A stretch of DNA of 63,991 nt, filler included, from Ionaspis alba (lineage: Eukaryota), in assembly GCA_964255285.1 (NCBI GenBank). It is 11 parts of 11 records of this genome, joined end to end, with 100 filler letters (N's around TTAATTAATTAA, not from the genome) between each part and the next. Parts side by side here need not be neighbours in the genome. Positions count along the whole stretch, not along the records: positions 53,007 to 58,714 come from CAXUUL010000987.1; 10 more parts are not named here. One strand, written 5' to 3'. Under the pieces are notes generated by a model. It was not told where the DNA came from. It saw only the letters and a list, made by a program, of their open reading frames with translations, and did not search any database. This document shows positions 5,864-58,814 of the stretch, in pieces. The translations under genes and the position numbers were made by a program. Each line of letters begins with the position of its first letter. Positions within the stretch are counted from its first letter, which is position 1.

Positions 5864-5964
5864 TNNNNNNNNNNNNNNNNNNNNNNNNNNNNNNNNNNNN
5901 NNNNNNNNTTAATTAATTAANNNNNNNNNNNNNNNNNNNNNNNNNNNNNNNNNNNNNNNNNNNN

Positions 5965-11341: not shown

Positions 11342-11925
11342 GCTGGAGACGGCAATGGTGGAGAGCCAAAGGCGGTTTTGGTGAAAGAACTCTTGCTGCA
11401 AATAGATAGATCTCGCAGAGTAGATATTGCGAATAAGTTTGGAAAGTTCGAGCAATAAGGAATGGAAGTCTAGAGATGATATAACTTCAGGTGCTCTCCA
11501 TGTACTGAGTCTGGCTGTCGTGGCTGTTGACTTCGCTATCCACAGCTGAGGACGCCTCCCACATTGCAAAGCTGACAGCACAAAATCCTTACAGGCTCAA
11601 AAGTTCACGATAGACATCCACCGAACAGAGGTTAGACCGAGATAAGTATAAACAACACTCCTGCCCCCGCATCACGAGCTCGAGTGCTACTCTACCAAGC
11701 CACAGAACGCCCTTCTAACCGAGGGTCGATTCAGCTCCAGCAGTAGAGAGAAGTTCGATGACTTTCCCTGAAACTTTATGTGCATGCAACCAGTGGGATC
11801 TTTAGACAAGATCCGCCGAGCCGGGNNNNNNNNNNNNNNNNNNNNNNNNNNNNNNNNNNNNNNNNNNNNTTAATTAATTAANNNNNNNNNNNNNNNNNNN
11901 NNNNNNNNNNNNNNNNNNNNNNNNN

Positions 11926-16126: not shown

Positions 16127-18589
16127 TTTTGTTCGGTATTTACAGATGAGCACAACGTTCTATGGGATGTGAATGCTGAAGGTGATTTATGAGGACAATA
16201 ACTTCTCGAAGTAAGGTCGAAGCCTCCGAAAGGTGACTTGTTAGTATGAAGTGAACGTGCGGTGTTCTGGTTTCAATTTGCTGGACAATGACCTTCTCCA
16301 GATCAAGGAACTGTGGCAGCTGATGCGAGCAAGACCGAAAGTCAACAAAGAGTAACGACCGACGGCAGCGACGACAGTGGTAATGATGGAGGTTGTCTTT
16401 TCTATTTTCTGAGCTTTCCAGGTTGGGTGCAGGAGAATTAATTTAGGCTTTCTGCGAGCGAGACTAGAAGGCAGCAAGTGAATGATGGCCTGGCGTCATT
16501 TGTTACCACCACTAAGGCGCGCCCAAGATACATATCCATGTTTGCAGCTTCACCGGATTGAGAAATTGGCCGTCTGTCAGACTCGTGCTTTGTTTGATTG
16601 ACGGTAGTCGAGAGCGCGTGGATGCTTCGGCGAGTAAGTAATAATGAAACAGGATTTCTGTAAATAGCATGTTTTTAGAACATATGCACATGCTTCACTG
16701 TTGTGAGACTCTCATGCAGGTGCTCAGGCTACATTATGAAGACCTCGTGGGACGAAGGGAACTACTCTACAAGCACAGTTTGCGGCATCTTCGCGGCATC
16801 TTCGGCAGGATTGGCAGCTGCTGCACTCTATAAGAATGCTCTCCTTCCTCCGTCACCAATAAAGCCTTGGACCGAGCCCGAAGCTGACGACAACGACGCT
16901 TGGCCTTTTGCTAAGCCCGCCAAGTCCAATCAAATCAACAAATGATCGAGGATGGTGGGAGATGCTGCTGACGGCCCCAGTGTGTCATCACGGCTTTTCT
17001 TCGAGCCGTCCGGTCCGTTGTGCTACTGTGAGATTTTTATGAATCCGAAAGCGGTCTGTCCTCGGGAGAAATGCTCCAGGAAGATGAAGATTTGAGAAAT
17101 CGATTCCAAGGAATAACCATGACGGCGGAGGATACCGCGTCAATGGCGTCGAATAGTTGATTGTCCCGCCGGATGGGGGATCTAGACTCTCAATACAGCT
17201 GTACGCCCCGGCGGGAAACGAGTCGGACGTCACTAAGGGAAGGTACCAAAAGTGATGGCCATCTCGAAGAGGTACGAGATATGTGGAAGGACAGACGCTA
17301 CACCACTCAGTAAGTCAAATTGTCTGCAAAAATCATGCTTCACGACTTAGACTTCTCAAAAGCTCCATAGTCGTTTTATGAACAATGATGGAGCACATTG
17401 GCGACTGAATCATGCTATTCGTTGACCTTTCAAGCGACCAAGAGATTCTCGCTTAGCTTACCCAGAGATTAGATTTGTGGTAGCTCCTCCCATCTGGTGG
17501 CGAAAAAACCTGGGGAAGTTTCCCTCAACAAGCATTCAAGCCATTCCTTCCAATCGTATCCCCCAGCGAGCTCTTCTCACTCCTCGGGCTTAATGACCAT
17601 GTCTGTCACTTCGAGCCTCATAGTCTCATCCTCAATGGCAACAATGATCTGACTTTCCCTCTCACCACCGCCCCCACCTATGCATGCCTCCTCCCGTCCT
17701 CCTCCCAATTGGCATGCCGCCCCTCCGCCCCACCACNNNNNNNNNNNNNNNNNNNNNNNNNNNNNNNNNNNNNNNNNNNNTTAATTAATTAANNNNNNNN
17801 NNNNNNNNNNNNNNNNNNNNNNNNNNNNNNNNNNNNTGCCTGTGGGGCGCGTAGCCGCCGTGCACGCTGGAGAGGGGGGAGGTGAGCAGGGAGGGGATGG
17901 AGTGATGACTTTATGACCTTTTTGATGATGATGGTTTGGTTATGTTTGCGATTAACGGCCGATGTTTTTTGGGTTCTTCTTTTCTTTTTGGATATGCTTG
18001 AGCGATTTGGATTTTGTTTAATTGATGAGTTTGATGAGATATGATGACCTTTTGAATACTAGGGTGTGTGCTTAGTTTAGATAGTTTGGATAATTCTTTC
18101 TCGCGATGGTTGGACTATGCTTCGGCAGGGTGATCGTGTCTCATCAAATTCTCTTCGTGCGGTAGTGTTGTAGATGATTATGGCCTCTACCACGTCGTTT
18201 GCTGGTAAAATGTGGAGTACGGGCAGAGGAGGTGATCTGTTACGATTACAGCATTTCTTTTCACCGAGTAGTCCGTTCCTTGACCAATAAGTGCAGGATC
18301 CTTAGTACCACTCACAAGACTCAGTGTTGGATGGTGCTCTGGATGGTTGTTAAACGCTTAGCAGTTCTAGCAAGGTGGCAAAACCTCTTTTTCTTAGGTA
18401 TATCACTAAGACTTGCTGATGTGAGTGGAAAAATCTGTGCAGGCTATCGTCATACGCAGGCTCTACATTACCGTCGTCCTGTTCGGTAGTGACCCACGAA
18501 GTTGTTGCAAGTCGTGAAAGTAGCGCTTGGTGAGGATAACAAGTATAGATATCCTGGATATCTGATGTTCTTTTAACACTATAGCGGCT

Positions 18590-21478: not shown

Positions 21479-21905
21479 NNNNNNNNNNNNNNNNNNNNNN
21501 NNNNNNNNNNNNNNNNNNNNNNNNNNNNNNNNNNNNNNNNNNNNNNNNNNNNNNNNNNNNNNNNNNNNNNNNNNNNNNGTGAACTTTGTGTTGCTCAATT
21601 GGTGGATTCAATTGCGGCTCTGCAGAACTACTGCACCTGTGATCCATGTTATAGAGAAACCACGGAGCTTAATGCCGGCGCGGCGGAGGGGTAGATCTGG
21701 TGGGAGGGGAGAAGGCAAGGTTATATTGACAGGTCACACTGGCTATCTTGCTAAGATCCATACCATACTGCTCCTTGCTTAGTCTTGAATGACTGTGAGA
21801 CTGCGAGACAAGAAGCTGTAGCTCAATAGCACTTGACGTCCTTATATCTTGACTTGCGTGAAAACGTTGCTTGCCTATGCATTGCTTCTTGTTCGAACTC
21901 CAAAG

Positions 21906-23014: not shown

Positions 23015-24162
23015 TTGAGCTGTTGTGGGTGCCTAGGGAGATGGTTGGTAGTGATCGGACTGCTGCGGTGGGTAGCTGGAAGTGCAAGTCGTGTTGTTGT
23101 CTTAGAGCTATGCAATCGGAGTCTGTGATCTGGCCTAATGTGATCATGTGTCAATGGCTGGTGGTACAATCTATTCGAGATCCACACGTCAAAATTACTC
23201 CTGTTACCATGTCAGCCAGCCAAACGAAGTAAAAGTGTGACTCACTCAACTCAGTACATGCTTCTTATCTCCTCTCATGATCTCAGGCTCGTACTTAGAG
23301 TCTCTCGTCATGATAGCTCGTGACGCTCTGCCAACGTCGACGTGCTTCATACTCTCGAGGCAAGCCGAGAGCCACAATGCACTTCTATACCACCACATTG
23401 AGACATTGACCTGAGCTTCAAGCAATACTCCTGGCCACAACGCTGCTCTTCTCCACAGGCCTAATCCATTGAACCATAGTTATTGGGTTTAGATCTTCGG
23501 CACGGTTTCGTCATGTGCCAGTTTCGCCTGCCATCGTGCCTTCCATCTCTCTGGCCCCCTTTGGGGAATGATCACGCAATTACCAGCGATCCTCGGCTTC
23601 TCGATTGAGCTCCAAACCTAAAGGGAGCTATGTCGTGCTTCACANNNNNNNNNNNNNNNNNNNNNNNNNNNNNNNNNNNNNNNNNNNNTTAATTAATTAA
23701 NNNNNNNNNNNNNNNNNNNNNNNNNNNNNNNNNNNNNNNNNNNNTAACTGGGACGTGGAAGTACCATTAAATACTTGTTAGATTGCACTTGAGAGAGCTA
23801 TACAATGAAGTGCAGTATTCGTCACAATAGACAATGGCCATGACGGTCGATAAAACCTCCGTATCGCAATGCCGTACTTCGAACGGCTTAAAAGATGAAA
23901 AGTGTTTGCGTTGTAACCTCAATCAATCTTTGTAGCTTTGTAATGAAAGGTGTTGCAGGCAAACATTTGGCTTCGTGGTGCTATTCTCGATTCGGCAGGT
24001 TTGCCGATGTTTACTTACTTTCCGCTTCGATCAACTTTCAGCTTCAGCATCGGCGTGCCACACCCATCATCATTTCAAACATTCTTACACGCTTACTTCT
24101 CGACCACCTTCCTTGCTGTGGTGTATGATGATTTGTGATGGTCATCTGTGACCTTACCCATC

Positions 24163-29545: not shown

Positions 29546-32500
29546 NNNNNNNNNNNNNNNNNNNNNNNNNNNNNNNNNNNNNNNNNNNNTTAATTAATTA
29601 ANNNNNNNNNNNNNNNNNNNNNNNNNNNNNNNNNNNNNNNNNNNNGTCCGAGGAGGTGGGCTTGTCCGACACCGTGGCATGTGCATGAGGAGGATGTTGT
29701 GGTGAGCGTTACGGAGATCGGGGCGGGGATGGAGGACATGAGGGAGATGGTCTGTTAGGGGTTTGGAGAGGGGGGTTGGCTTGGTATACATACGACCGGC
29801 CTATTGATACACTTGGTCTTGGCCAGCTTCATAAGAAGTGGCGGCGTTTCCACCCTTGGCGTATAGATGGGTGGCAATGGGCATTGGTAAAGGATCATGG
29901 TGGATACCTGGTGGAGAAACAGCACACATTACTTGGTGTCACGGTCGGCTAATAGGAAACGGCCAGAGGAGATGGCTTCATGGGAGATATCCTCCTGTTC
30001 TGATTCATTGCATACATGATCTTGAAGCAGATTCGATTTACAAAACCACTAATAATCTTATTATTCATTTCGATACTTCTTCTCTATATGAGTATTGAGA
30101 AGTTCACTTCTCACATTTCTTGATTATCCTGATACCCTGATACAGTGTGAATCCGCATTTGACGGAGTGAAAGCCCCCGAATCGCGGAACGTTATTCCAC
30201 TTATAAAGCCGCCCAGTTCCTTCCCATGGCTCCCCAATCTCTAACTCCCACATATAAGAAACCGTATACAACGGGGTAAACATCGACAAGTCTCCACACA
30301 TGATTCTTTATATACCAAACCTGTTCATTCTGATGGCTCTCCAATCAATGACTTACACATACAAATCATACACCACATCAAAATTCTTTAATTAATGTCA
30401 TCCTGCGGCGAGCAACAAAATCTTGAAAGATGAACCCTGATAACGTATCCAAAAGGGTCTCATCACCGCTTCGGCACAATCGAGATGCTCCCTTCAAACA
30501 CTGACCAGGCATCAGTCTGCGATCCAATTCTGATTGAGCTGGACTCATCAGACTGGACGGCCCAGAAGGAGGACAAGCTCAAAAACGCGAGACGGATGTT
30601 AAATACGAGGCCTGAGGGTAGTAGTGCTTGGAGAATTCGGATGACCCAGGTGAGTTATGCAAGAACTTTGAAGATAGAGATAAAGACTTGGAACTGATAC
30701 AGAAAGTCAAGGAGAAAAAGGAGGACACAAGGCGTCGATGGAGATAGATACGAAGGTTGTGGCATTTTATGGTGGAGGGCGTGCTATGGAGAACCTTGCT
30801 CTTGTGGTTCCAAAGTTTTGCGCAGATGCAATGTTTGGAAGGTAATATGCTGCTAATGAGCTTTCTTGAGAGCAGATTGAGACGTTGGAGGAAGAGAAGA
30901 AGCGTGCAAAGAAGAAAGAGGAGGAAGAGAAGGCTCCGCAGAAGGAGAAGAAAGGGTCAAGGGGTTGGGGCGGCGATTGGTGGATGAGAAATGGAAGGCC
31001 ACCGTTACATATGAAAGGGAGGGTCCCAGTAAAGAATGAGATTTTGGAAATGCCACATAGGGAAAGGTAGAATTTCAAGGTCTGGAAGATCAGCCACGCT
31101 CTCGAGAGGTGGCGCAGAGCCAAAAATGCCTTTCGTGCGGACAATATTCTGCTCAGGAAAAGAGCCTCTCGCTGAGACTTGTCGCATCATGTGCGACTGT
31201 GGAGGCGCCTCCTCGGCTCCCTCGCCGCCTCCTGGTCAGACTCATCGAGGCATCCTGTGGATCTTTGAAAGGGAAGGTCTGACAGGAAAAGGGTGGGGGT
31301 ACGGATCAATAGTGTGATTGGGTCCAGAGGACGAGGAAGCAGGAGGAAGTATGTATGTAAGACGGGTAGAGCGGGCCTTTCCCGAGTGCATGCGTATTTG
31401 TATGCGTAATGATGGAAGTGTCGTCGTTCCCAGTGCATGATTGACCTGTCTGGACTCTCGATGCAACGACAAACGCAGTAGGTGTGATAGAAATATTGGA
31501 TTCTTGAGAATTTGCAACCTTCTCCAATGAGATGACGAGTACATTTGTTGATGAGATTCGTGCTCTTTGACGTGAAAGTGGAAGGTGAGGATTTGGAATC
31601 AGATTGGTGATCCGTAAACGATGCTCTGCATACCACCTTGAGTGGTTTCACAGCCATTTGGCCGTGGATCACAGACATGATGCATCGGAGATATATCATT
31701 GGTAGAAACCTGCAGTTTGGTTCAGATTCTCGATGGAGAAATAGATATGTGTTTTGAATCGCATTTGGAAATTGTGATGAGATCTGTGCACATGCATACT
31801 GTGATCGAGCTTGTAAGAACATGTCTTGGAGGAGGGTTCCAATCAGAGGGGAAAGGACAATATTTCAATGCTCAGAGCTACGAATTGAGTTTTCCGGAAC
31901 GGGGAAGTTTTGGTGTCAATAATGGCTGGCGGTTGGCGTCAAATGAGAAGTATCTATCGCCATTACCTGTTTTGACGCGTTAGGAGCAGAGCTCTCCTGG
32001 AAGAATAATCTCCTCGTTTCTCCTCGGAATCCTGATGTCAGTCACCAGATATGTACTCTTTGATAGATGATCATCTACCGTCTTTCCCCTATCTTTCAAA
32101 GCGATCGCGCGAATCATGATGCCGTTCCACCAACAAGAAGTTCGCCCGTGTACAGAGGAGAGGCTGTGATTTCAATGCCGGGTTAAAGCTGCGTTATGTG
32201 GCTTGCTTGCGGGACGTTGCCCCTTGCAATAATCCTCCAAGGTCTTCTTCGTCCTCTCACGCCGGCCGCCGTTCTTGTTCACCACCCATCACGGTCTCTG
32301 AGGAGATGGCCTTCTGCTAACATTTCCCCATCCCGCTTTTCCACAACCACCATGTTTGTTTTACCATCCCCCACTCTTCGCGTGGGATGTAGTTTCTGTC
32401 TGGCAGCTTATCGGCGAGGCTTCTGTGCACTTGTGTCGCCCAACTACTGAGTAGCGACTACTACTGCGACACCAACCTCGGCTCCGAAGAGTTTCGCAAA

Positions 32501-35430: not shown

Positions 35431-37237
35431 NNNNNNNNNNNNNNNNNNNNNNNNNNNNNNNNNNNNNNNNNNNNTTAATTAATTAANNNNNNNNNNNNNN
35501 NNNNNNNNNNNNNNNNNNNNNNNNNNNNNNAATGCTCAAAGACTCTTGAGATATGTCCAGCAGCTTACTTATAGTATTAAGAGAGGCTTATCGTTGAACA
35601 GATCTCCGCGTCGATTGAGACTGAAGTGGGTCAAGCTGGTCAAATAGGAACAGGCGGGAATGCGCCTGGATATTCCTGTGTCACAAGCTCACGGTATGAG
35701 GCTGAGGATTGGGTCTTGAGTACCCTTCGTGCTATTATGTCGATCCCGAATCGCGACCGTTCAAGTTCACCCATCGATCGTCTCCTGTTCCTGTTTAGAC
35801 CAGGATAAATTCCTCGAAGTCATCTGCAACCTCAACACATTCGCCCCCGATGAGCCCACTTTCCATCTCTGGCAATGCTCTGGCTAAGTCTGCCGTCTGA
35901 TTTGGACCACAACCTTTCTAGTACAAAAGTTGAGCACTAGATGATGGGGTTCGGACGTCTAATTGGCGGCAGCAATCCGATTTGTTGTTTGGACATTGAA
36001 GAACATACGGTTTCACACCACGTGCAGCTAGGTATTGAAGGATGTACTCTGGTTTTGAATTTTGCCTCAAGACCACCTCTTTTTAGAATTTGGATTAATG
36101 TACCCAGCTCCTGGCTGAGTACTGGATGATGCAGATACTGGTGAACATCGTCATCTTGAACACAAGGGACACGACACCGTGTACCCGGATTTATGGAGAG
36201 TTGAATGATTACCTTGATCGTAAATCCAGGAGATAATCCACTGCCCGAGCCCATCAGTTGACTTCTTCGAAAGCATCATAGACTGAACCCTACAAGACAA
36301 CTCCGTCAGAACCATAATAGAAGTTGTTGGAAGATTATTACTAGATGACAGTATATGTCCATATGCTTGGTAGGGTTGATGTGCCCCCAAGGAGTATAAT
36401 CATTATCGGGAAAGGTCTTATCGCCCTTTGCTGATATGCTGATTTGCTTCCATCGTGACATGAGCCAGTTCTGTTTTCGCTGGTATGCCATTTCTGATCT
36501 CAGTGTCAGGAATGTGGTGGTAGAGTTCTTATGATGATTGCTGTCTATCGTAAAAGAAGTTCATCTATCTTAGAGAAGTATCTGCAAGACACTTAGAGCT
36601 CTGGAGCTTTCTGTAATGCTGACAGTGGAATTATTTGGGACACGCTAAACATCTACGCCCTAATTAAGCGAGGCTTGGCATCTATGTGCTCTCAACCTTC
36701 GTTCTCAAGGACTAAAAGAGTATTAATAATATACGATATATCTTCTCAACCGCATGCGTTTCAGGAATCGAGGAGCCGTCATCGTTATGCTAAAAATGTA
36801 TAACAGACAACATGATAAGAGGTCGTGGAAAGTGAAGATTATGTCACCGACCCTCGCAACCACGGAACCTGTGAAGTGGATCCTTCAGGGACTGGCTGTG
36901 ATGGGTGAAATAGTAATGGAAGAGCTCCATCCGCAATAAAAGGTATAGCTGTGAACATGAAATCCTATTTGATTATCTAGAGTCATACGCAAACTTGTCC
37001 CCTCTAACTCGACAACCCCGCAACCCTCGAGCACATGATCAAGTTCAACAAATCTATCGTCAAGCTTCTGCTCCAAACACCATGTGAACTAACGCTGTGC
37101 CGATACCCGATCTCAAAACGCCCCGCTGAAATGCCACCCTGAAAGACGCGAGACTAGCAACTCCAAGCACAAGTTGCAAGGCAAAACTCCACAATCAATT
37201 TGATGTCAAATAAGATGGATGACCATTCGTCCGAGTC

Positions 37238-41267: not shown

Positions 41268-41742
41268 NNNNNNNNNNNNNNNNNNNNNNNNNNNNNNNNN
41301 NNNNNNNNNNNTTAATTAATTAANNNNNNNNNNNNNNNNNNNNNNNNNNNNNNNNNNNNNNNNNNNNGGCAGAGCGGACGGGATGCCCAGTTTTCTTGAG
41401 TCTATGGTCGTATGTGATAGATAGTGCTCATATAGTAATTAATCAACGTTTTTGAGTTGAGCTCCACTCCTTGGTTAGCTCCAGGAGGGGTCTCCAATGA
41501 CGCAAGCCCAAAGCGGCACAGAATCAACAAACCTTGGCGACGGCTATTCAAGTTTCAGGAAGGAACTGCTAGTTTATTAGTTTCAAGCTCATTGTAATAG
41601 GCAACAGCAGGCTGTGCCACAACGATCCTTAACCTAACGTTCTCAACTGATGTTTATCTAATCTTTGTACTCTGCAAGTACTATACAATTTCATTTCTCC
41701 CCTAACTATCTGAACCACCATTATCCCTAGAAACCGGTCAGC

Positions 41743-46542: not shown

Positions 46543-47585
46543 CCGAAGTTTGAATCACGTGAACGGCGATGATATGAGCGATTTTAATACCATTATCTTG
46601 TACCATCATTGTATATTGTTGTATACTATTCAGATTATCCAATACCCCTTTTTCTAGCAAAGACTTTTAAATTCAAGCTCCATGGAGACCTTTGTACCCA
46701 CCCTGATATAATTATCATTATATTCGTTAAACCCATCAAGTGCTGAAACACATTCCTGTTCTTGATCCATCCCTTCAATACACGCAAGATGTTCTCCCTT
46801 TTGGTGTCCCACGGCCTCGTTTATGCTGTAGTCCAATCCCGCGATTCGGAAGACTTCTTTCACATCGAACCTGCTCCCTCCCTTCACCATTACCACAAAC
46901 GACGCTTTTTCGAATTTTTCTCACCCCCAACACTAGCATTGCGTCTTTGACGGCAAGTCTCGACTCTCATCATTCGACAAGAAGCCTCTCTCATGCCCAG
47001 CTGCGCCCCTACCATTGCCCTCATCGAAAAGGGAACTCCAATTTCTCAAACCCGAGGATGACTTGCATGAACATGCCGGCGCCAATGTNNNNNNNNNNNN
47101 NNNNNNNNNNNNNNNNNNNNNNNNNNNNNNNNTTAATTAATTAANNNNNNNNNNNNNNNNNNNNNNNNNNNNNNNNNNNNNNNNNNNNTGCATCTTCCTT
47201 GCTCGCCCTGACCCGGCGCTGCAGAACATCTGTCAAAGCCATCCTACATTGAATGATTACTCCGACTTTCGTGGCCCAAAAACCTTTGAGATGGTTGCGG
47301 CGAGATTTAAGCCTGTGCATGCAGGGACATGCGGCGCTAAGATAACTTAATATTTAAACGCTGCGATTAAGATATTGAGTCATGTTTAAGATTGGTTCTA
47401 TGTCGTTGGTAAATGCATGCTCTCTCTGTCTTCTTTCCGACGGACTCTTCAGGAAAGATCCAGGACTTCAAACCTCGTTCTTTACTCCTCTCTTGTGTCA
47501 GCCTCCATACTAAAGCATGCGAAGAGCATCTTCGAAATCACTCAGGTAATTAAGAAACTTCGAAATCTAAAGTATTACAACTAAG

Positions 47586-49412: not shown

Positions 49413-50931
49413 TGCGAGACACATCCGGGCATAAGACGTTTCGCGTAAGGAGTATGCCTAGACCATGCTTGCTAATAGATCGGGTGCTGCTGTGATTCTA
49501 GACTTTCGCTTTGGCGTTTTTGGATTACCTTTGAGATTTGATATACCCCAGTCTGTTTGCTTAGACTGCATCTGCTTCGAGCGATAGATCAAATACAATA
49601 CGTGAAAATGCGTACATGGAAAATTTACATCTTATGAATGTGAGAACGATGTTTTGATACCGTTTCCAGAATGCTTTAATCTGTTATTTGCCGAGTTTGA
49701 TGACTTGTAAATAATACGCTTTCCCCCGGTCGAGCTACCCTTTCTGCAAAGCCGTTCTAAGTACATCTCCAGCCAAATCAACAATGCAGCCACTACCGGA
49801 CAAAATGAGCTGATTGACCAGAGTTCCGTTGTATGCTATGTACAACCTATGCTGGATTCAGAGTTCTAATACACAAGACGACCATTAACCACCGATGGGT
49901 GTTTGTGTCTCGGTCATTGTTTCAATCGTCTCATATCCAATCATACTCTCCAGGGTATCTCTGAACTCGCTTAAAAGCCAAACCCGGACAGAAGAGATCG
50001 AATTACAGTCAACGCCAAGCGTACACAAATGTGCCTTGAACAATCGACAATTGGTGTCATCGTAGTGACTGGTCTCAATCGTCGGTAAGATCAATCGTCT
50101 CAATAGGATCAAAAGGCTTGCGTCGTTTGAGAGCTGGCTGTTCGTCCCTGTCCATCCCCTTTCTCTTTTTTGCGGTGTCAGGTTCTACCTCATTCTTGAT
50201 GTCGAGTGTCTGTTCCAAATGGTTCAATCGTGTCTGCGCAAGAATGTCAGTGGATGGCCCTCAGTTGACACTGGACATAGCCTCGTAGGGCCAAAGCAGC
50301 GATCTCTCGCGCTGGCCCCAGAGACGTGCTTGCTGATAGTCTACTCTGGAAGACTCTACGATAGGATGCTTCGAGAGGCTTTGGAGGCGCTGAAGGTACT
50401 CTCGAGATACAGCCGAGCATTTCAAGTGCGGCTNNNNNNNNNNNNNNNNNNNNNNNNNNNNNNNNNNNNNNNNNNNNNNNNNNNNNNNNNNNNNNNNNNN
50501 NNNNNNNNNNNNNNNNNNNNNNNNNNNNNNNNNCTTTGGAGGCGCTGAAGGTACTCTCGAGATACAGCCGAGCATTTCAAGTGCGGCTGTTCAAGCAATA
50601 AGATGTAGGAACAACTTTTCACGTTTTTCTAGGGTTTTTTGGGGCAGGTGAAATTGTGAAGAAAATGCGATTGGCTAGTTTTGCGTTGCAACGGATATTG
50701 CAACCGCGCCTCGGGCGTGCAAAGCCATTCTTCTGACAGCACCTTCACTGCCCGATGATAGTCCAATAGAAACATTACAAGACTACATAGAACTACAATA
50801 ACAGGTTGGCTGCGACTCTTGTCTCTCCGAAGATAAAAACAGTCCTTCATTCGCTTTCAACTATCTAAGCTCGCATGCTGCCTTTCCGGAGAATGAGTTT
50901 GAAAACTTCGCTCATTGTTGAAAGGCAAACC

Positions 50932-52494
50932 CTAAGAAGAGCTTTTCTGAGACACCGCCCTCTTTGCCACCTTCCCTAAACGCTCCGCTATTGAATCTAA
51001 AAATGCACCCGTACCCCACTGCAACACATTGTCCACTTTAATAAAAAAGTCTAGCAGGCTCTCCAGCAACGTTCCATTACAAACCGTCAAGATGTACATG
51101 TTGTACTTGCGTACGCCATCCTCGAAAAGGGTGTAATGAGCCCAGAGCTGATGGATAGGACCTTCGGTGCAGATGGAGAAGAAAAGTGGAGGTGTTTGAG
51201 ATGGAACATGGGGATCGAGGACTGCGACGGCTGGAACGTCGGAAACAGTCGAATTTTCCACGAGCTCATCTAAACAAAGCTGGATCTTCAGCCCACAAGC
51301 CCCAGAGACAGCTGCCTGGTTCTCTGCTTCACATATCTGTTTGCCGGTCGAGTAAGCCTTGCCCTCAACAACAATAAACGGGAACATAAGATCTGACGCG
51401 CGTTCCGCAGGAGCTGCGATCAAAAGTGGTTCCTCAGGCCCGTCTTGGCGGCGACGTTTCATAAGTCTTTTGAGGTTTGCCAAAAGCTGCCAGGCCGCGG
51501 TGCTCGTGAGGTTCTGAGACGAGAGAACGGAATAGAGATCCGTATCTTGTATGCCAAGTGAGAAGTCGGGACGGGGAGTTTTGATGAAGGGAGGAGGAAG
51601 CATGCTGTCCAGCTGCTTGGGTGGGGCAGACTCCATCGTATCGCTCGTTGACGTTTGAGGAGACACGTATTTTGAACCTGCACCCTGCTGCTGGCGCTTC
51701 GGCAGTGGAGCTGAGTCGTCAACCTCTTGTTGCTGGTTACCAGCTAGGAAGTTGAAATTGAAGTTTGATGGCTGAATTGTTGGCTTAAGCTCCTCTCGCC
51801 AGTCAGCTTTCTTACGAAGGCAGAGGCGTTTGTGGTCCATAGCTAGAATAGCATCGTGCAACAAATCGACGCAGTCGTCTTCGCCGACGGCTGCACGGAC
51901 TGTTTTAGTACAGCCATCAAGGAATTTCTGAGCTATAATACGGAGTATAGATCGGCGCTCCTTGGAAGGATTGGGGCTGACTATACTGTTAATAACGACA
52001 TGGATGTTATCCGGTGGATGAGTATAGACGTGGACCCCGGCGGCTGTGAGATGGTTCTGGCGGTAGTGGGCGGCAGTGCCAGAAAAACGTTGAGTCGGAG
52101 TTGCGTCAGATGCGGCTGTGGAACGCCGTGATGACGACGAGGACCGTTTAATGCAACTGGAGGCTACAGAATCCATATCCTCGTTGAATATTTGCAAATT
52201 GGTCTCCGAGAGTATATCGGGTTTCCGTTTGGGACTAGCCGGCTGAGGAGGAGATGATGCTTGGCCAGACTGAACCTGGTGCCCGTTGACTTCCTGCGTG
52301 CGTTTCCGTCTGGGGCGTCTTAGCGGAGAATGTGATGCTTGACCAGACTGAGGCTGCAACTCATCGACTGCAATAGAAGCCCGCGTGCGCCTCCGCTTAG
52401 AAGGGGGGGGTTGGGGAACAATTGATGGCTGAAACTCATCGGCTTCAAGGGCTCGCGTGCGCTTCCGTGTAGGAGAATTGGAAAGTAAAACCAT
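50932..52494 (-). CDS. Fungal protein with PD-(D/E)xK-like motif, uncharacterised
   Basis: Intronless ORF with a basic NLS-like N-terminus; KTPRPDFSLG...FPFIVVEGK...EAENQAAVSGA; FFSICTEGPIHQLWAHY. Confidence 0.75.
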   Translation of the reverse strand: MVLLSNSPTRKRTRALEADEFQPSIVPQPPPSKRRRTRASIAVDELQPQSGQASHSPLRRPRRKRTQEVNGHQVQSGQASSPPQPASPKRKPDILSETNLQIFNEDMDSVASSCIKRSSSSSRRSTAASDATPTQRFSGTAAHYRQNHLTAAGVHVYTHPPDNIHVVINSIVSPNPSKERRSILRIIAQKFLDGCTKTVRAAVGEDDCVDLLHDAILAMDHKRLCLRKKADWREELKPTIQPSNFNFNFLAGNQQQEVDDSAPLPKRQQQGAGSKYVSPQTSTSDTMESAPPKQLDSMLPPPFIKTPRPDFSLGIQDTDLYSVLSSQNLTSTAAWQLLANLKRLMKRRRQDGPEEPLLIAAPAERASDLMFPFIVVEGKAYSTGKQICEAENQAAVSGACGLKIQLCLDELVENSTVSDVPAVAVLDPHVPSQTPPLFFSICTEGPIHQLWAHYTLFEDGVRKYNMYILTVCNGTLLESLLDFFIKVDNVLQWGTGAFLDSIAERLGKVAKRAVSQKSSS

Positions 52495-53006
52495 GCCCCA
52501 TGGAAATAGCGAGCGAAGACAGTTGAATACCTGGTCGTAGCGCAAATCAAGGGATACAAGGGGATGTCTCAGCGTGAAATGGGATATAAAAAACTGGTAA
52601 CTGGCAATTAGTAAGGTAGGCACAGCGCTAAACCTAACTCGTACAAAGCTCGCTTACGTGCACTGATACTGAAACTTTCACGAGAGCTTCACGCATAGCC
52701 ATCACATAGCTCATTTGTATCTACACGAACTACCAACCCTCTAAGGCCAACGGTCTCTCTTCCACTCCCCCTCCTCATCAGTCCAAGGAGATAGCAGGAG
52801 ACCTCGGGGAAGTACCTCTATCTCTCAGATTGCCTACTAGTGGCTGAAGAAACTGAATGATCTCAGACAGCACTGACCAGTGCCAATCAAGTAAGGACGA
52901 ATAGAGNNNNNNNNNNNNNNNNNNNNNNNNNNNNNNNNNNNNNNNNNNNNTTAATTAATTAANNNNNNNNNNNNNNNNNNNNNNNNNNNNNNNNNNNNNN
53001 NNNNNN

Positions 53007-53154
53007 ATTTAATTATATTGAAGCTGTTTAAGTATTTTATTTTTTTATATATTATGTATATTTACGGAACTATAATTTATTGAAATTTCGTGATTTTGGT
53101 AAAAAGTTAGGTGTCCGGATATTAGCGTGTGTCCGAGTACTACGGGGGACACTG
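53007..53154. mobile_element. Terminal fragment (probable TIR) of a Tc1/mariner-pogo-like DNA transposon
   Basis: Very AT-rich stretch ending GTGTCCGG..GTGTCCGAG..GGGGGACACTG followed by TA. Reverse complement reads TA|CAGTGTCCCCC, matching the CAG(T) terminus and TA target site of this superfamily. Confidence 0.6.
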
Positions 53155-53472: not shown

Positions 53473-55447
53473 TCAGCCCACTGGCAGTCGAGGACTCTTT
53501 TCACCCGAGGAACTTGGATCCCCTGGTGATGAAACTTTGAAACGGTTCATACCCGGCTTTTCTCCGATTGTAGGAGTGGATGCACGTGGCCTAAGGAGAA
53601 GAACTGGTTCTTCCCCATTTTCATTGAGGGCGTTGAATCGCTGCACAGGGCGCTCCGTCATCTTGAAATAATGTTCTTTGCCACGGCTCGTGATGGTCAG
53701 GCTATACCGGTCGGGGTTCCCGCAAAGACCATATTTCTCAATGAGCTTACGAAGGACGAATGATGTTGATTCTAATTCATAATTTCTGGTTTCCAGAATA
53801 AATGGCAGTGGATTTTCAGCTGGCCAGGGATCGTTATCAGATAAGCCAAAGTCGGTCAACCGCACTTCCTTCGGGCCTGGCAACCGTCTTCCAGGCGAGT
53901 TCTGTGACCTGGTCGCAATACGCTGATTTCTCCGGAGCACAAAGCTTGGCTTCTTTCCCTCCTCAGCTTGCTGCCTGAACAAGCGGAGAGGCGTTTCTTC
54001 CAAATCAAGGCAGCGTTCCTGATCATCGACGACTAGATACAGATCGTAATCACGCCAATCGGCAGTGATATTGTGCTTCTTCAATGCGGCAGGGAGAACT
54101 TTGTATGTAGGATCGTCCATAGAGACTCGAAATTTCTTGAGAATTTCGACGCCGGGACTGTTGAGTGGTGGGACCTCAGGTTGCTCTTGCTTGGACTCCT
54201 GGCTGGGGGATGGCTCATCTCTTCTCCATAATGGAGATGTCGGGCCTGGATTGCTTTGAGATGGCTCATTCACTCTACCTGTTGGAGATCTTGGGCTTGA
54301 AGTGCTTGGAGGACTCGGCTCCGACCATGGGGTCGGGGTCGAGTGTAACGTTGGATGGTGTGCAGCTCTGCGTGCCTTCCGGCCTAGGGATCCCGCTGGA
54401 GACTGGACAGGACCTCCCGGGGGCGAATCGTCAATGGCACTTCGTTGAAAGCTTGCGTTAACCTGATCCATCGGACTATCACGGTCGTAAATCGTCGGAT
54501 CAATCAGCCTGCTCAGCCGATGACCCTCCTGGGTCCATCTCTGTAGTAGATGGATGGGTTGAGACTGAGTATCAGTCAAAGACGACCCATCATCGACTGG
54601 CCATTGCTGAATAGCCGACGGTCGGTCACTAGATATTATATTGTTGAACAGTAACGAATTCCGATGCTTTGTTGAATCTTGAGAATCCACGTTTGGAGAT
54701 AACAGCACTTCGTTCATTATGACAGATCTTCGATTAGCACGGCGCTTCGTTACCGGGCTGGAGAGAAAATCTGGAGAGCTTGATCTATCGTTGATAGATG
54801 CCGCATCTACTCCATCAAAATCTCCGTTGGTTTCAGCATCTTCATCCTCTAATCTCTCAAGCTCATCTACACAGCACCTTCGTGCGAGAAGGAGACTCTG
54901 CGTTACAGCCTGCTGCCGTTCGTCTTCCTTCTGTGTTTCAACGGTCGGAATGCTGCACACATCAGTGGCTGTAGTAGATCTTTCGCTACGACACTTACTC
55001 GCGAGAGGCAATGTTCTCTGCAAACAGCAGAGTCATCAACATACAGGACAGAGTGAGCTTGGCAGACTCGAGTGTCTTTCTTAGCAATTGAACCTTCGAC
55101 CGCTTGAGAGTCCAAGCTAGGCGTGCCATAAAATTTGGCTCCGCATTCTTCTTCTTCAAGCCACTAAGAATTTGCTCGATCTCCTTAAGAATTGGATCGC
55201 ATTGCTTCGTAATCGATTCAATACCGAGAAGTGCAGTCATTGAGTATCGAACACTCTTCTTCGCCTTCGATAACGTAGCTTCGACTTGCTTAAGCACAAC
55301 ACAGAACTGAGAGACTTCTGTACCGAGGGCAGCCATCTCCGAGGCTGCGGCTCCTACGATACTAACGAAATCGAAGATCGCGATTGATATCTTGGCGCCT
55401 GCTCCAGCGATACCAATAACGCTGGCAAGCGCTCCTATTTCCGCCAT
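53473..55447 (-). CDS. HeLo-like (fungal STAND N-terminal) domain fused to two Ste50-type Ras-association domains
   Basis: Exon 1 MAEIGALASVIGIAGAGAKISIAIFDF...RLAWTLKRSKV. A 46-nt intron 54953-54998 (GTAAGT..CTGAT..CAG) joins in frame to an exon with VEILKKFRVSMDDPTYKVLPAALKKHNI...KPSFVLRR and a second diverged copy. Confidence 0.82.
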
Positions 55448-56476
55448 ACTGGATATTCTAGTCTTCTCGTTACCGTAAAACAGAATTAGGGATGAGAAGT
55501 CATGTTCTTGCAACAGTCTTTTCCCCTGCAGCAGGGTGAGGCATATCTCGACATCGTGAGGCTGAGCGGCAGGCTTCTATCTCCCCGGGACGCCAAGGCT
55601 TAGACCTGGCCGAGCCACAAAAATTGCGAGGCTATCCAGGGCATTCTTCCGCCGAAGAAACAGACATCGAGCGATGTGATCCAAATGGCAACCGCTATTC
55701 ATGATTAATGAAAGTCTCCTGTTCTAAGGATTACGTCTTTACGGAGCTCGATCAACAGTGATGATTTTTAGGGAATTGGCGTCTTTAAGCCCTCAGGGGC
55801 TGAGTATCCGTACGAGCATAATTGCCACAAGTGTTGCTTCAGGGGCTCCTCGCCAGTGCTTTTAGGGAGGTCACATTAGCGAACAGCCCCCTGGGGCCGT
55901 CTGCTTCGCTAGCTACTGTGGTTATGTCTCGGCAACGATTTAAGTGACCCCGCCCTTGTCACGAAGCAGACCCCTTGTCTCAACACTATGTTATACTAGG
56001 TGACAATTTAGATTATGGCGGTGATTTCGATGAAAGCTCATGCCTCGAAGGTCTACTTGCACCATTGGGCAAGAACAACAGCAGCAGCTCAACCCACCAG
56101 ACTGCTAAGTGAGGACTCGAGAAATCCTGCTGCCGACTTACAACACCTCTCGTGCCAAAGTTTTGTTCTGGGAGTATCATTTGGAAGGGGTACAGCTGTG
56201 AGCATTAACATTTTGATAGTCTCAAATGATCTTCTTATGAATTATCTCAAAACTCTTTGCTACAAACGGAGCTTAATTTATAAGATCGAAGGGCGAGTAC
56301 ACAGCACTCGCGCGGGCACATACTAAACTAAAAATCAGAAGTGTTAGAGAGAGGGTTGCAGATGCAATATGTTCATTTCCGTGTCCGACCAAACTCAAGC
56401 GGGTATGAGTAGAACCTCAACCTAGACAAAAGAATCACCAACAGCTTTCTCCTTGCGTCCGCGCAAGCATCAAGTG

Positions 56477-56878: not shown

Positions 56879-57275
56879 GTCCGTTCGCCTGACTCTGGAC
56901 AGTGATGGTTTGGTGTGGTCGCCAGATGAGGGTGTGCATGGTGGATCGAAATGGCTTGTTGTGTTAGAGGATGACGTGACTTCGTTGCTGGATTGGACTC
57001 CTTTNNNNNNNNNNNNNNNNNNNNNNNNNNNNNNNNNNNNNNNNNNNNNNNNNNNNNNNNNNNNNNNNNNNNNNNNNNNNNNNNNNNNNNNNNNNNNNNN
57101 NNNNAATACAAGCTAGCCTCTTTTGCAGAATAACCAAGAGATCCAACAAGACTCCTAACTCCAGAGCATACATCTCTATCAAGCACCTCTCTCCCTCCTT
57201 CCGCAGACCCAGCGACCTATTCTTCCAGTTCTCGACGTACCAAGTCGTACAAGTTGCTCGGGGAAAAGAAAGCAA

Positions 57276-57920: not shown

Positions 57921-58814
57921 ATCTTTGTTGCGAGGGAAAGAGGTGGTGAAGAGGTACTGATAATGGTAGATGAAGGTGAGGTTTCTATCTCTCAATAGCG
58001 GTATTTGTTTCTTAGGAGCGGGAAGTGGTTGATTAGTGATAGCAGGCTCTCTATGCAGATGTGATAACTGATACTCAGGAGGTATAGCAAGAAAAACATA
58101 CACGGCAGAACGACCTGCATTATATAGAAACAAAGGCATTGTGTGAAGTACAATGGAGGTAAGAAAGACCACCTTTGTGAAGATGGCTGCATTGTGAAAT
58201 AAAGAAAGACCACCATTGTGAACACAGCTGACCTAAACGCCCGCACGTGTTTTCTGCTTGTCAAGGAAAGCCGACTGTGGTAGCAACTCACTGGAAAGAA
58301 GTGAGAAAGCTGCAATGAAGGACTGGCGGCTCGATGCGAACTATCTTCCAGGAACATGGAAGTAATATTGTCTGTGTTTCGGCCAACAACAAGACATGAC
58401 AGAATGGAAATGAACGAAAACTCCATTCAAGAAAGCATCAAAGTACCATCAAGCGTCCGTCAAGCATTCACGGTACATTGAGAAACCCACGACTCAACAC
58501 AGCATCAAGATCAACGTTGGATAGATCTAGTATCCAACAAATATGCATCGTAAGTCGAGACACCCACATACCGTATTCACAACAAATCATCATATCAATA
58601 CATCTCACCATATCCTCCCTTCACTTTCGCCCCCCACCCATCAGTACTGTCAACACTCACAACACCCACGACCGCACCACACTCCCACACTCCTAAACAT
58701 CCACCCCCCTCACCNNNNNNNNNNNNNNNNNNNNNNNNNNNNNNNNNNNNNNNNNNNNTTAATTAATTAANNNNNNNNNNNNNNNNNNNNNNNNNNNNNN
58801 NNNNNNNNNNNNNN

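What the first reader, a model, noticed from the sequence alone, without database searches (positions are those of the whole stretch)
53473..55447. HeLo-like effector domain fused to tandem copies of the Ste50 RA domain: candidate integrated-decoy immune protein
Seen: a canonical 46-nt intron joins two separately listed ORFs into one protein of about 640 aa. The N-terminus (MAEIGALASVIGIAGAGAKISIAIFDF...RLAW) has the hydrophobic first helix and layout of HeLo-like/SesA domains. About 53930-54150 closely resembles the C-terminal RA domain of the MAPK adaptor Ste50 (FRVSMDDPxYKVLPAALKKxNI...QERCLxxEExPLxLF...KPxFxLR). About 53590-53800 is a second, diverged copy. No SAM, NACHT or repeat domain is visible. 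Known: HeLo-like domains head fungal NLRs and cell-death effectors, and the Ste50 RA domain binds small GTPases and Opy2. Inference: a death or signalling domain wired to a duplicated MAPK-adaptor module could guard or decoy the Ste50/Ras-Cdc42 pathway. It sits next to a transposon end and orphan genes, consistent with an accessory region.
Basis: partly seen in the sequence, partly recalled or inferred. Interest (0 to 1): 0.8.

Follow-up and report, generated by a model that had tools for sequence, protein, structure and literature searches.

The report
HeLo-like bundle fused to Ste50-type RA domains
This is a real two-exon fungal gene that joins a predicted membrane-targeting, cell-death-type helical bundle to two copies of the docking domain of the MAP-kinase adaptor Ste50, and it belongs to a widespread family of filamentous-fungus proteins that appears never to have been studied.

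Summary
A canonical 46-nt intron (54953-54998, minus strand) joins two ORFs into a 642-aa protein. Homologues support the join, including ones encoded as a single ORF.

- **N-terminus:** residues 1-149 form a confident helical bundle with a hydrophobic first helix. The direct Pfam matches are below threshold (SesA 18.1 bits, PF17111/Helo_like_N 15.9 bits). The link through relatives is firm: 37 of 44 relatives hit PF17111.
- **RA domains:** both pass Pfam's RA cut-off. RA1 keeps 46 of 58 positions that are at least 90% conserved in 117 Ste50 RA domains. RA2 keeps 16.
- **Absent:** no SAM, NACHT or repeat domain.

It is not a one-off. Among the proteins fetched, 28 of 78 long proteins with this N-domain carry RA, including named species of four ascomycete classes. 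Others carry SH3-WW, ULD_2 or SAM instead.

The RA domains of the family do not form one clade. They tend to group with the Ste50 RA of their own class (AU p 0.061, 0.0135, 0.0335).

The "accessory region" claim fails, because the window is a chain of short contigs joined by artificial spacers. The decoy and immune function is untested. No RNA data and no whole genome were available. I found no paper describing this architecture.

The parts
54999..55447 (-). Exon 1 (ATG at 55447). It encodes residues 1-149 and the first two bases of codon 150.
54953..54998 (-). 46-nt intron, GTAAGT...CTGAT...CAG
   Evidence: Read directly. Splicing gives one open 642-aa frame. The junction aligns with homologues. 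There is no RNA evidence.
53473..54952 (-). Exon 2 including the TGA stop (residues 150-642)
55001..55447 (-). HeLo-like/SesA-type N-terminal helical bundle (residues 1-149)
   Evidence: Pfam is sub-threshold directly. 37 of 44 relatives hit PF17111 and 24 of 44 hit SesA. 632 relatives at E<=1e-3. AF2 pLDDT 91.5. MLKL 4btf_A scores Z 11.0.
55343..55438 (-). Glycine/alanine-rich hydrophobic first helix (residues 4-35)
   Evidence: The most hydrophobic 19-residue window of the whole protein starts at residue 7 (Kyte-Doolittle 1.87). The same holds in 41 of 44 family N-termini.
54838..54939 (-). Conserved acidic helix just after the bundle (residues 155-188), brace-like
   Evidence: Conserved across the family. 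In the model of homologue P0128 the matching stretch is one long helix, 157-199, with pLDDT 90-94.
54505..54552 (-). Conserved linker motif HLLQRWTQEG... (residues 284-299). The family consensus is LLxKWTDQ.
   Evidence: The W is the only invariant column in 22 full-length relatives. In the P0128 model it is helical with pLDDT 77-90.
53899..54201 (-). RA1, a Ste50-type RA domain (residues 401-501)
   Evidence: Pfam RA 50.4 bits. Up to 70% identity to Ste50 proteins over about 16% of the 492-aa query. 46 of 58 Ste50-conserved positions are kept.
53560..53805 (-). RA2, a diverged second RA domain (residues 533-614)
   Evidence: Pfam RA 36.3 bits. 16 of 58 Ste50-conserved positions are kept. 20-27% identical to the other RA domains compared.

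Best explanation
Shown. One two-exon gene encodes a 642-aa protein with these parts in order:
- a HeLo-like/SesA-type helical bundle of the MLKL four-helix-bundle superfamily, with a hydrophobic first helix;
- a conserved acidic helix;
- about 210 residues of low-complexity linker that holds a conserved LLxKWT-type motif;
- a Ste50-type RA domain, then a diverged second RA domain.

It belongs to an uncharacterised family of filamentous ascomycetes built on this plan. It is not a Ste50 orthologue and not an NLR.

Inferred mechanism. RA1 docks on the same membrane-anchored partners as the RA domain of Ste50. In yeast those are Cdc42 and the Opy2 tail. Docking concentrates the protein at the plasma membrane. 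There the N-terminal bundle acts on the membrane through its first helix, as HET-S, HELLP and MLKL do. The protein would thus be an NLR-independent executor laid out like MLKL (bundle, brace, regulatory module), with its trigger wired to the Ste50/Cdc42 MAPK hub. The RA module is kept similar to the resident Ste50 RA, by gene conversion, recapture or shared constraint.
For: - **Architecture:**
- **Single gene:** relatives carry both halves in one chain, and the junction aligns.
- **N-domain homology:** phmmer against 1.84 billion representatives gave 632 hits at E<=1e-3, 115 at E<=1e-10 and a best of 1.5e-40. Of 44 short relatives, 37 hit PF17111 (best E 5.5e-12) and 24 hit SesA. Nine of 57 long relatives reach PF17111's own cut-off, including P0128, which is 54% identical. 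PF17111 is the HeLo-like profile Helo_like_N (passages of PMC9815663).
- **Fold:** pLDDT 91.5 and pTM 0.84. The top 50 of 48,161 chains include the Rx CC domain (Z 12.2), MLKL 4btf_A (Z 11.0, rmsd 2.3 over 100 aa, 18% identity), NRG1.1 CC-R (Z 9.6), MLA13 (Z 9.5), MLKL 6ux8_A (Z 9.5) and AtMLKL3 (Z 8.9).
- **Hydrophobic first helix:**
- **Role of the domain elsewhere:** HeLo and HELL domains target membranes and kill, and this depends on the extreme N-terminal helix (passages of the review PMC12881547).
- **RA1 is Ste50-type:**
- **Partners of the Ste50 RA:** it binds Cdc42 and Opy2 and apparently not Ras (introduction of PMC6589780).
- **Family:** 28 of 78 proteins of at least 300 aa with the N-domain have RA. 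None of the 181 N-domain proteins matches the SAM-containing first 200 residues of a Ste50.
- **RA tracks the local Ste50:**
Against: - There is no functional, expression or localisation evidence of any kind.
- The query's own PF17111 and SesA scores are below Pfam's cut-offs.
- Z scores under about 13 for helical bundles can reflect a common arrangement only. The best structural match is IncA (Z 15.6), which is not a death domain. Foldseek found nothing at E<=0.001.
- Pfam now names PF17111 after a pigment-cluster protein, so not every member need be an executor.
- None of the 57 long relatives scanned has a NACHT or NB-ARC domain. The link to immunity is therefore by domain ancestry only.
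- The family looks conserved across classes. It does not look like the fast-turnover, expanded families typical of immune genes. I did not measure turnover.
- RA binding partners are extrapolated from yeast Ste50.
Confidence: 0.4

Rival explanations
1. Non-lethal signalling adaptor or competitor. The helical N-domain is only a membrane-association or oligomerisation module. The protein acts as a SAM-less Ste50 look-alike that occupies Cdc42 or Opy2 sites. It would either damp Ste11-MAPK signalling or scaffold another output at sites of polarised growth.
For: - RA1 keeps 46 of 58 Ste50-conserved positions, and the protein lacks the Ste11-binding SAM.
- The same N-domain is joined in relatives to other ordinary adaptor modules: SH3, some with WW, in 3 of 57, ULD_2 in 3 of 57, SAM_2 in 1 of 57.
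- The family is conserved across four classes, as housekeeping-type regulators are.
- No relative scanned has an NLR domain.
- The top structural match is a SNARE-like bundle, IncA.
Against: - The N-domain's only recognisable kin are HeLo-like and SesA profiles. Known members of those are death-inducing or sit on NLRs (passages of PMC12881547).
- The conserved TM-grade hydrophobic first helix is the hallmark of the membrane-disrupting members.
Confidence: 0.3
2. Bait or decoy sensor. The RA domains mimic Ste50's RA. A toxin or effector from a competitor or pathogen that attacks the Ste50/Cdc42 hub would also hit the bait, and that would release the HeLo-like bundle and kill the cell.
For: - The family's RA domains are not one clade. 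They sit with the Ste50 RA of their own class (Helotiales and Fusarium with Leotiomycete and Sordariomycete Ste50; the Diplodia group with a Dothideomycete Ste50; the query with Geoglossomycete Ste50). AU p is 0.061, 0.0135 and 0.0335. A mimic kept matched to its model would look like this.
- The N-domain acts as a platform for interchangeable interaction modules.
- A SAM_Ste50p-type annotation was reported among N-termini of fungal NLRs (passage of PMC9815663). The other half of Ste50 has therefore also been seen in the immune repertoire.
Against: - There is no NLR in the protein, and none was seen on its 5.7-kb contig.
- No effector that targets Ste50 is known to me (recalled, not searched).
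- Tracking of Ste50 can arise from gene conversion or shared partners without any bait role.
- The trees rest on about 100 columns with long branches. One of the three AU tests is above 0.05, and the third set of rows was chosen after the earlier trees had been seen.
- No sign of rapid diversification was tested.
Confidence: 0.15
3. Two separate genes or a decaying locus. The intron is not removed, so exon 1 gives a 150-aa HeLo-like stub and the RA ORF is separate or dead.
For: There is no RNA evidence for splicing. The two runs that hold the stretch are contigs that carry the intron.
Against: - The splice signals are canonical and the frame is exact.
- Relatives have both halves in one protein, including named NCBI models (P0128, P0276, P0277) and uninterrupted ORFs (P0123, P0132, P0136).
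- The junction aligns without a gap.
- Both exons are intact over 642 codons.
Confidence: 0.03

Closest known systems
HELLP / HET-S type HeLo and HeLo-like (HELL) cell-death proteins of Podospora and Chaetomium (Pfam PF17111 Helo_like_N, now PigL_N; PF14479 HeLo)
   Same: An N-terminal helical bundle with a hydrophobic first helix. There is profile similarity to PF17111 and SesA through relatives. The protein stands alone rather than being part of an NLR.
   Different: Those proteins end in an amyloid signalling motif and are switched on by a partner NLR through templating. This one ends in RA domains and has no amyloid-like tail. Its own Pfam score is below the cut-off.
MLKL (necroptosis executioner): four-helix bundle, brace, pseudokinase
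   Same: The same logic of layout: a bundle, then a helix that continues from it, then a regulatory protein-interaction module. The bundle superposes on 4btf_A at Z 11.0, rmsd 2.3 over 100 aa.
   Different: The regulatory module is RA instead of a pseudokinase. A long disordered linker lies between. There is no evidence of phosphorylation control.
Ste50 / Mst50 / SteD, the MAPK adaptor (SAM + RA)
   Same: RA1 is a Ste50-type RA. It is 57-58% identical to Geoglossomycete Ste50 RA over about 100 columns, and it keeps 46 of 58 conserved positions.
   Different: It has no SAM domain, so no Ste11 binding is expected. The N-terminus is different and there is a second RA. No protein in my set has both the N-domain and a match to the SAM-containing first 200 residues of a Ste50 (0 of 181).
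PigL_N + ULD_2 (PF22893) fungal proteins of unknown function
   Same: The same N-domain, followed by a long linker and a C-terminal beta-grasp domain. P0124 of Oculimacula is 35% identical in the N-domain. These are the nearest Atlas clusters (scores 0.89 and 0.87, leads only).
   Different: The C-terminal beta-grasp here is a bona fide RA of Ste50 type, and it is duplicated.
Plant NLRs with integrated decoys (e.g. RGA5/Pik-1 HMA, RRS1 WRKY; recalled)
   Same: The idea of a host-target look-alike fused to an immune executor.
   Different: There is no nucleotide-binding oligomerisation domain and no paired NLR.

Membership tests
HeLo-like (Pfam PF17111 Helo_like_N / PigL_N) | The query's own match to the profile reaches the curated cut-off | tested here: inconclusive
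   15.9 bits, E 0.0085, against a cut-off of 27.2. The match spans profile positions 4-138 of 209. It is below threshold but co-linear.
HeLo-like (Pfam PF17111 Helo_like_N / PigL_N) | Homology through close relatives that do match the profile | tested here: met
   37 of 44 N-domain relatives hit PF17111 at E<=0.01, best 5.5e-12. Nine of 57 long relatives score at or above 27.2 bits, including P0128, which is 54% identical to the query.
HeLo-like (Pfam PF17111 Helo_like_N / PigL_N) | Helical bundle fold of the MLKL 4HB type | tested here: inconclusive
   The model is confident (pLDDT 91.5). MLKL, Rx CC, NRG1 CC-R, MLA13 and AtMLKL3 all appear among the top 50 (Z 8.9-12.2). Such Z values are common for helical bundles, and IncA ranks first.
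HeLo-like (Pfam PF17111 Helo_like_N / PigL_N) | Hydrophobic extreme N-terminal helix | tested here: met
   Kyte-Doolittle 19-residue maximum of 1.87 at residues 7-25. The same placement holds in 41 of 44 relatives.
HeLo-like (Pfam PF17111 Helo_like_N / PigL_N) | Membrane targeting and cell-death activity | not testable with these tools
   Needs expression assays.
SesA (PF17107) | Profile match at the cut-off | tested here: inconclusive
   18.1 bits against 26.3 for the query. 24 of 44 relatives match at E<=0.01, best 7.5e-10.
RA domain (PF00788) | Profile match at the cut-off, for each copy | tested here: met
   RA1 50.4 bits and RA2 36.3 bits, cut-off 21.
Ste50 orthologue | N-terminal SAM domain that binds Ste11 | tested here: not met
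   No SAM family appears at E<=10 in either exon. None of the 181 N-domain proteins matches the SAM-containing first 200 residues of a Ste50.
Ste50 orthologue | C-terminal Ste50-type RA | tested here: met
   46 of 58 conserved positions are kept. Ste50 proteins are the main hits.
Fungal NLR (STAND) | NACHT or NB-ARC domain plus WD40/ANK/TPR repeats | tested here: not met
   None in the query. None in the 57 long relatives.
Integrated-decoy NLR (plant sense) | The decoy domain is carried by an NLR receptor | tested here: not met
   No NOD module.
HeLo-like + RA family (defined here) | N-domain, acidic helix, LLxKWT-type motif and C-terminal RA, in that order | tested here: met
   Alignment with 14 full-length relatives, consensus of 22, domain scan.

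The most novel reading that the evidence does not exclude
Filamentous ascomycetes carry an NLR-independent, MLKL-like sensor-executor. A HeLo-like pore-forming bundle is held on a long tether by a copy of the Ste50 RA domain. That copy is kept matched to the cell's own Ste50 by gene conversion or recapture. Tampering with, or abnormal activity of, the Ste50-Cdc42-Opy2 hub would therefore be read out directly as membrane attack. Sister proteins would use SH3-WW, ULD_2 or SAM baits on the same chassis.
Probability: 0.15. Interest if true: 0.85.

Novelty: new variant of a known kind. Interest (0 to 1): 0.6.

Why it matters
HeLo and HeLo-like domains are the fungal counterparts of the MLKL and plant CC-NLR membrane-attack bundles. 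Until now they have been described either on NLRs or in front of amyloid motifs that NLRs switch on.

A conserved family in which the same bundle is tethered to the docking domain of a core MAPK adaptor would be a third way of controlling such a domain. It would be the closest fungal parallel to MLKL's layout of bundle, brace and regulator.

It would also link regulated cell death, or at least membrane targeting, to the Ste50/Cdc42 hub. That hub governs mating, osmotic response, fusion and pathogenic development in fungi.

The hint that the RA module tracks the resident Ste50 is testable with any complete genome of a species that carries the family.

On the practical side, some members are deposited under the Ste50 name "Adaptor for signal transduction". 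That can mislead orthologue counts.

Tried and rejected
- **RNA evidence:** no RNA holder was listed for the stretch. The two runs laid are contigs of unrecorded kind. They cover the intron with no joint. This says nothing about splicing or expression.
- **Whole genome:** none is held. I could not look for the organism's own SAM-RA Ste50, nor compare its RA-coding DNA with this gene.
- **Complex prediction, N-domain against RA1-RA2:** no verdict. It is not evidence either way.
- **PDB by sequence:** exon 2 gave only a chance hit to a designer PPR protein. The N-domain profile gave weak hits to de novo coiled coils and to NheB/MakE-type pore-forming toxins (E 0.0025). I treat these as compositional.
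- **Foldseek against PDB:** no match at E<=0.001. The HET-s HeLo structure did not appear in the 50 rows shown by VIA-align. That does not exclude it.
- **Origin of the SH3 in the SH3-WW relatives:** only generic SH3 matches such as Grb2 and beta-PIX, with no link to a MAPK-hub protein.
- **Earlier findings of this scan:** none for this genome or sequence.
- **Large RA tree (134 rows, quick search):** unresolved. I relied on the three smaller careful trees.
- **Literature:** 'HeLo-like' + 'Ras association' gave 0 papers. 'Helo_like_N' + 'RA domain' gave 0. 'HeLo' + 'Ste50' gave 1, which mentions only a SAM_Ste50p annotation on NLR N-termini. PF17111 gave 7 papers, 6 of them listed. I judged those from titles and abstract starts and read passages of one. 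The supplements of PMC9815663 list domain architectures and were not opened. They may contain members of this family.
- **Rejected:** the only Ste50 of the organism (no SAM, different family), an NLR, and a chance ORF.
Full report
**1. What is in the sequence.**

The gene lies on the minus strand. The ATG is at 55447, and no other ATG lies upstream in that open frame.

- Exon 1 runs to 54999.
- The next 46 nt (54998-54953) start with GTAAGT and end with CAG. A CTGAT lies 11 nt before the AG.
- Exon 2 runs from 54952 to the TGA at 53475-53473.

Joined in a script, the two exons give 1929 nt, which is 642 codons with one terminal stop. Without splicing, the first frame stops one codon past the donor.

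**2. Is it one gene?**

No RNA run was available, so the case rests on homology. It is a strong case.

- A 755-aa JGI model (P0007) has the same N-terminus and two RA domains.
- An uninterrupted 465-aa ORF (P0123) and the NCBI model P0128 (Mollisiaceae sp., 453 aa) carry both halves.
- In an alignment of the spliced protein with 14 full-length relatives, the junction (...ENIASR|D|IPTVETQKEDE...) aligns without a gap to P0128, P0132, P0136, P0153 and P0123.
- Three ORF-style records (P0130, P0135, P0145) have an insert of about 18 residues exactly at that point. An intron read through in frame at a conserved position would look like this. That reading is my inference.

**3. The N-terminal domain.**

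Directly, Pfam gives only sub-threshold matches: SesA 18.1 bits (cut-off 26.3) and PF17111 15.9 bits (cut-off 27.2). PF17111, called PigL_N in this Pfam copy, is the HeLo-like profile Helo_like_N of the fungal NLR literature (passages of PMC9815663).

The link through relatives is firm.

- phmmer against 1.84 billion representatives found 632 relatives at E<=1e-3 and 115 at E<=1e-10. The best was 1.5e-40 at 55% identity.
- Of 44 short relatives aligned with the query (A1), 37 match PF17111 and 24 match SesA at E<=0.01.
- Of the 57 relatives of at least 300 aa among the 150 listed, 34 match PF17111 at E<=0.001 and 9 reach its cut-off.

With A1 as the alignment, AlphaFold2 gives a confident all-helical model: pLDDT 91.5, pTM 0.84, helices 2-65, 70-99 and 106-149.

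- Foldseek found nothing at E<=0.001. Its top row is the IncA SNARE-like bundle.
- An exhaustive structural alignment against 48,161 chains again puts IncA first (Z 15.6).
- That list also places a run of immune and cell-death bundles in its top 50:

| Chain | Z | Note |
|---|---|---|
| Rx CC domain | 12.2 | rank 4 |
| MLKL 4btf_A | 11.0 | rmsd 2.3 over 100 aa, 18% identity, rank 9 |
| NRG1.1 CC-R | 9.6 | |
| MLA13 | 9.5 | |
| MLKL 6ux8_A | 9.5 | |
| AtMLKL3 | 8.9 | |

The tool warns that Z below about 13 is common for helical bundles. I therefore read this as compatible with the published MLKL/HeLo kinship, not as proof of it.

The most hydrophobic 19-residue window of the whole protein is at residues 7-25 (Kyte-Doolittle 1.87). 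The most hydrophobic window also starts within the first 25 residues in 41 of 44 relatives. In HET-S and HELL proteins the extreme N-terminal helix is what targets the membrane and kills (passages of PMC12881547).

**4. The RA domains.**

Exon 2 matches Pfam RA at E 3.2e-22 with two stretches. Scanned alone, RA1 scores 50.4 bits and RA2 36.3 bits (cut-off 21). They align to each other at 25% identity over 59 residues (E 4e-06).

In the word-indexed search, the first four non-self hits were exon-2-like relatives and the rest of the list was dominated by Ste50 adaptors. Those matched RA1 at up to 70% identity over about 16% of the query.

I aligned 117 RA domains of proteins that match the SAM-containing first 200 residues of a Ste50.

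- 58 columns are at least 90% conserved.
- RA1 keeps 46 of them and RA2 keeps 16.
- The 21 RA domains of family members split into a Ste50-like group (39-49 kept) and a diverged group (15-32 kept).

Tandem RA-RA also occurs in P0007, P0311, P0313 and P0314. In each of these the first copy is nearer to Ste50 than the second. The query's RA2 is the most diverged, at 20-27% identity to the other RA domains compared.

Yeast Ste50 RA binds Cdc42 and the tail of Opy2, and apparently not Ras (introduction of PMC6589780).

**5. The family.**

The protein is not an oddity. Its relatives share, in order:

- the N-domain;
- an acidic helix (consensus ...ETxxEDE....TQSL.IAQQ....L..LE);
- a motif LLxKWTDQ, whose W is the only invariant column in 22 full-length sequences;
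- a low-complexity stretch;
- a C-terminal module.

In an AlphaFold2 model of the close relative P0128 (mean pLDDT 75.2), the parts look like this:

| Region of P0128 | Prediction |
|---|---|
| Acidic segment 157-199 | one long helix, pLDDT 90-94 |
| LLxKWT region 274-303 | helical, pLDDT 77-90 |
| 201-242, 306-328 and 330-377 | pLDDT below 50 |
| RA domain | confident |

I call the acidic helix brace-like by analogy with MLKL. That is an inference. No coordinates or inter-domain errors were available to me.

- 181 proteins carry the N-domain.
- 78 of them are at least 300 aa long.
- 28 of those 78, counting the query, have an RA domain.
- None matches the SAM-containing first 200 residues of a Ste50.

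Named carriers:

| Class | Species |
|---|---|
| Leotiomycetes | Mollisiaceae sp., Oidiodendron maius, Phialocephala subalpina |
| Lecanoromycetes | Trapelia coarctata, Icmadophila ericetorum |
| Dothideomycetes | Diplodia intermedia |
| Sordariomycetes | Fusarium nematophilum |

They are deposited as hypothetical proteins, as "Ras-associating domain-containing protein" or, wrongly, as "Adaptor for signal transduction". The class assignments are from my own knowledge.

Other relatives carry SH3 (some with WW), ULD_2, SAM_2, synaptobrevin, Zn-cluster or LRR modules instead of RA. None of the 57 scanned has a NACHT or NB-ARC domain.

**6. RA domains track the local Ste50.**

I defined the family rows by the presence of the N-domain or linker motif. 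In three maximum-likelihood trees of about 100 columns, the family's RA domains never formed one clade.

| Rows (family vs Ste50) | Model | lnL cost of forcing one clade | AU p |
|---|---|---|---|
| 13 vs 32 | LG+C20 | 28.8 | 0.061 |
| 14 vs 28 | LG+G4 | 42.7 | 0.0135 |
| 8 vs 28 | LG+C20 | 30.4 | 0.0335 |

For one search I dropped the six longest-branched family rows after seeing the earlier trees.

The placements were as follows.

- Helotiales family RAs and the Fusarium one sit with the Leotiomycete Ste50, inside the Leotiomycete-plus-Sordariomycete Ste50 group (supports 97/88, 93/82 and 96/88).
- The Diplodia group sits with the Dothideomycete Ste50 (96/95, 93/94, 91/94).
- The query's RA1 joins the Geoglossomycete Ste50 pair in the last tree (86/83) and is unresolved in the others.

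Caveats: the alignment is short, the family branches are long, one test is above 0.05, and only one Ste50 was sampled for Dothideomycetes and two for Leotiomycetes.

Possible causes are repeated capture, gene conversion with the resident Ste50, or parallel change driven by shared partners. Part of the high similarity to Ste50 is simply that Ste50 RA evolves slowly. Each family RA is closer to Ste50 (40-65%) than most family RAs are to each other.

**7. Context.**

The window is not a chromosome segment. It is a chain of contigs of about 5.8 kb joined by N44-TTAATTAATTAA-N44 spacers at eleven places, with three 100-N gaps.

The gene's contig is 53007-58714. This is the same 5708 nt given as the longest contig of the self-hit. 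One run's contig also stops at 53012 and 56352.

The XPA, striatin-WD40, NIF-phosphatase, acyltransferase and DUF7924 ORFs lie on other contigs, so they say nothing about the neighbourhood. On the true contig, the other ORFs of at least 90 aa include a 318-aa one with no Pfam match at E<=0.001. The rest were not scanned. The "accessory region" argument therefore has no basis here.

**8. Reading.**

What is shown:

- It is a single gene.
- It has a HeLo-like/SesA-type bundle with a hydrophobic first helix, a conserved post-bundle helix and linker motif, and two RA domains.
- The first RA is of Ste50 type.
- It belongs to a conserved, unstudied family.

What is inferred:

- RA1 docks on Ste50's membrane-anchored partners.
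- The bundle acts on the membrane.

I give 0.4 to an executor wired to the Ste50/Cdc42 hub, 0.3 to a non-lethal adaptor or competitor, 0.15 to the bait version and 0.03 to two genes. The remainder is left open.

**9. Novelty.**

Full-text searches found no paper that joins HeLo-like domains with RA domains. For HeLo with Ste50, the one paper found reports only a SAM_Ste50p annotation on NLR N-termini.

The proteins exist in public databases without a function. I rate the finding a new variant of a known kind, namely a HeLo-like bundle with a new regulatory module. Interest is moderate to high. It is limited by the complete lack of functional data and by the modest strength of the tracking signal.

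Noticed in passing
window 5865-5964, 11826-11925, 17737-17836, 23645-23744, 29546-29645, 35431-35530, 41268-41367, 47089-47188, 52907-53006, 58715-58814 (and similar): The window is a chain of contigs of about 5.8 kb joined by N44-TTAATTAATTAA-N44 spacers, which put a stop in all six frames. There are also 100-N gaps at 21479-21578, 50434-50533 and 57005-57104. Gene order across the spacers is not real synteny.
   Followed up: yes
relatives P0136, P0172, P0188, P0288, P0289, P0291 (SH3, some with WW); P0124, P0224, P0249, P0266 (ULD_2); P0241 (SAM_2); P0207 (synaptobrevin); P0213, P0273 (Zn-cluster); P0274 (LRR): The same N-terminal HeLo-like domain and linker motifs are joined to different small interaction modules in other fungi. 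The domain seems to be a chassis with exchangeable C-terminal modules. Some of these records may be merged gene models.
   Followed up: partly
P0153 (Trapelia coarctata), P0286 (Icmadophila ericetorum): Family members without SAM are deposited under the Ste50 name 'Adaptor for signal transduction'. The name was probably transferred from the RA domain.
   Followed up: partly
window 50379-50433 and 50534-50588: A perfect 55-nt direct repeat flanks a 100-N gap. It looks like overlapping contig ends left unmerged by the scaffolder.
   Followed up: no
window 55815-55847 and 55921-55954: Short stretches of about 33 nt upstream of the gene also occur, with 2 differences, in other contigs of run X1. 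They may be a small dispersed repeat in the promoter region.
   Followed up: no
window 53007-53070: The contig ends, 3' of the gene, in very A+T-rich sequence. One run's contig stops at the same place (53012). A repeat boundary would fit, but no transposon was identified.
   Followed up: no
A1 profile against PDB sequences: The N-domain family profile gives weak hits (E 0.0025) to the hydrophobic head region of the alpha-pore-forming toxins NheB-type L1 and MakE. This is probably compositional.
   Followed up: no
literature, PMC9815663: That paper reports a SAM_Ste50p-type annotation among N-termini of fungal NLRs. The other half of Ste50 may therefore also have been borrowed by the fungal immune repertoire (passage seen).
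   Followed up: no
window 50932-52653 (-), on a neighbouring contig: A 573-aa open frame with a DUF7924 match (E 2.3e-07, 31.1 bits) and a long low-complexity N-terminal part. It was not studied.
   Followed up: no
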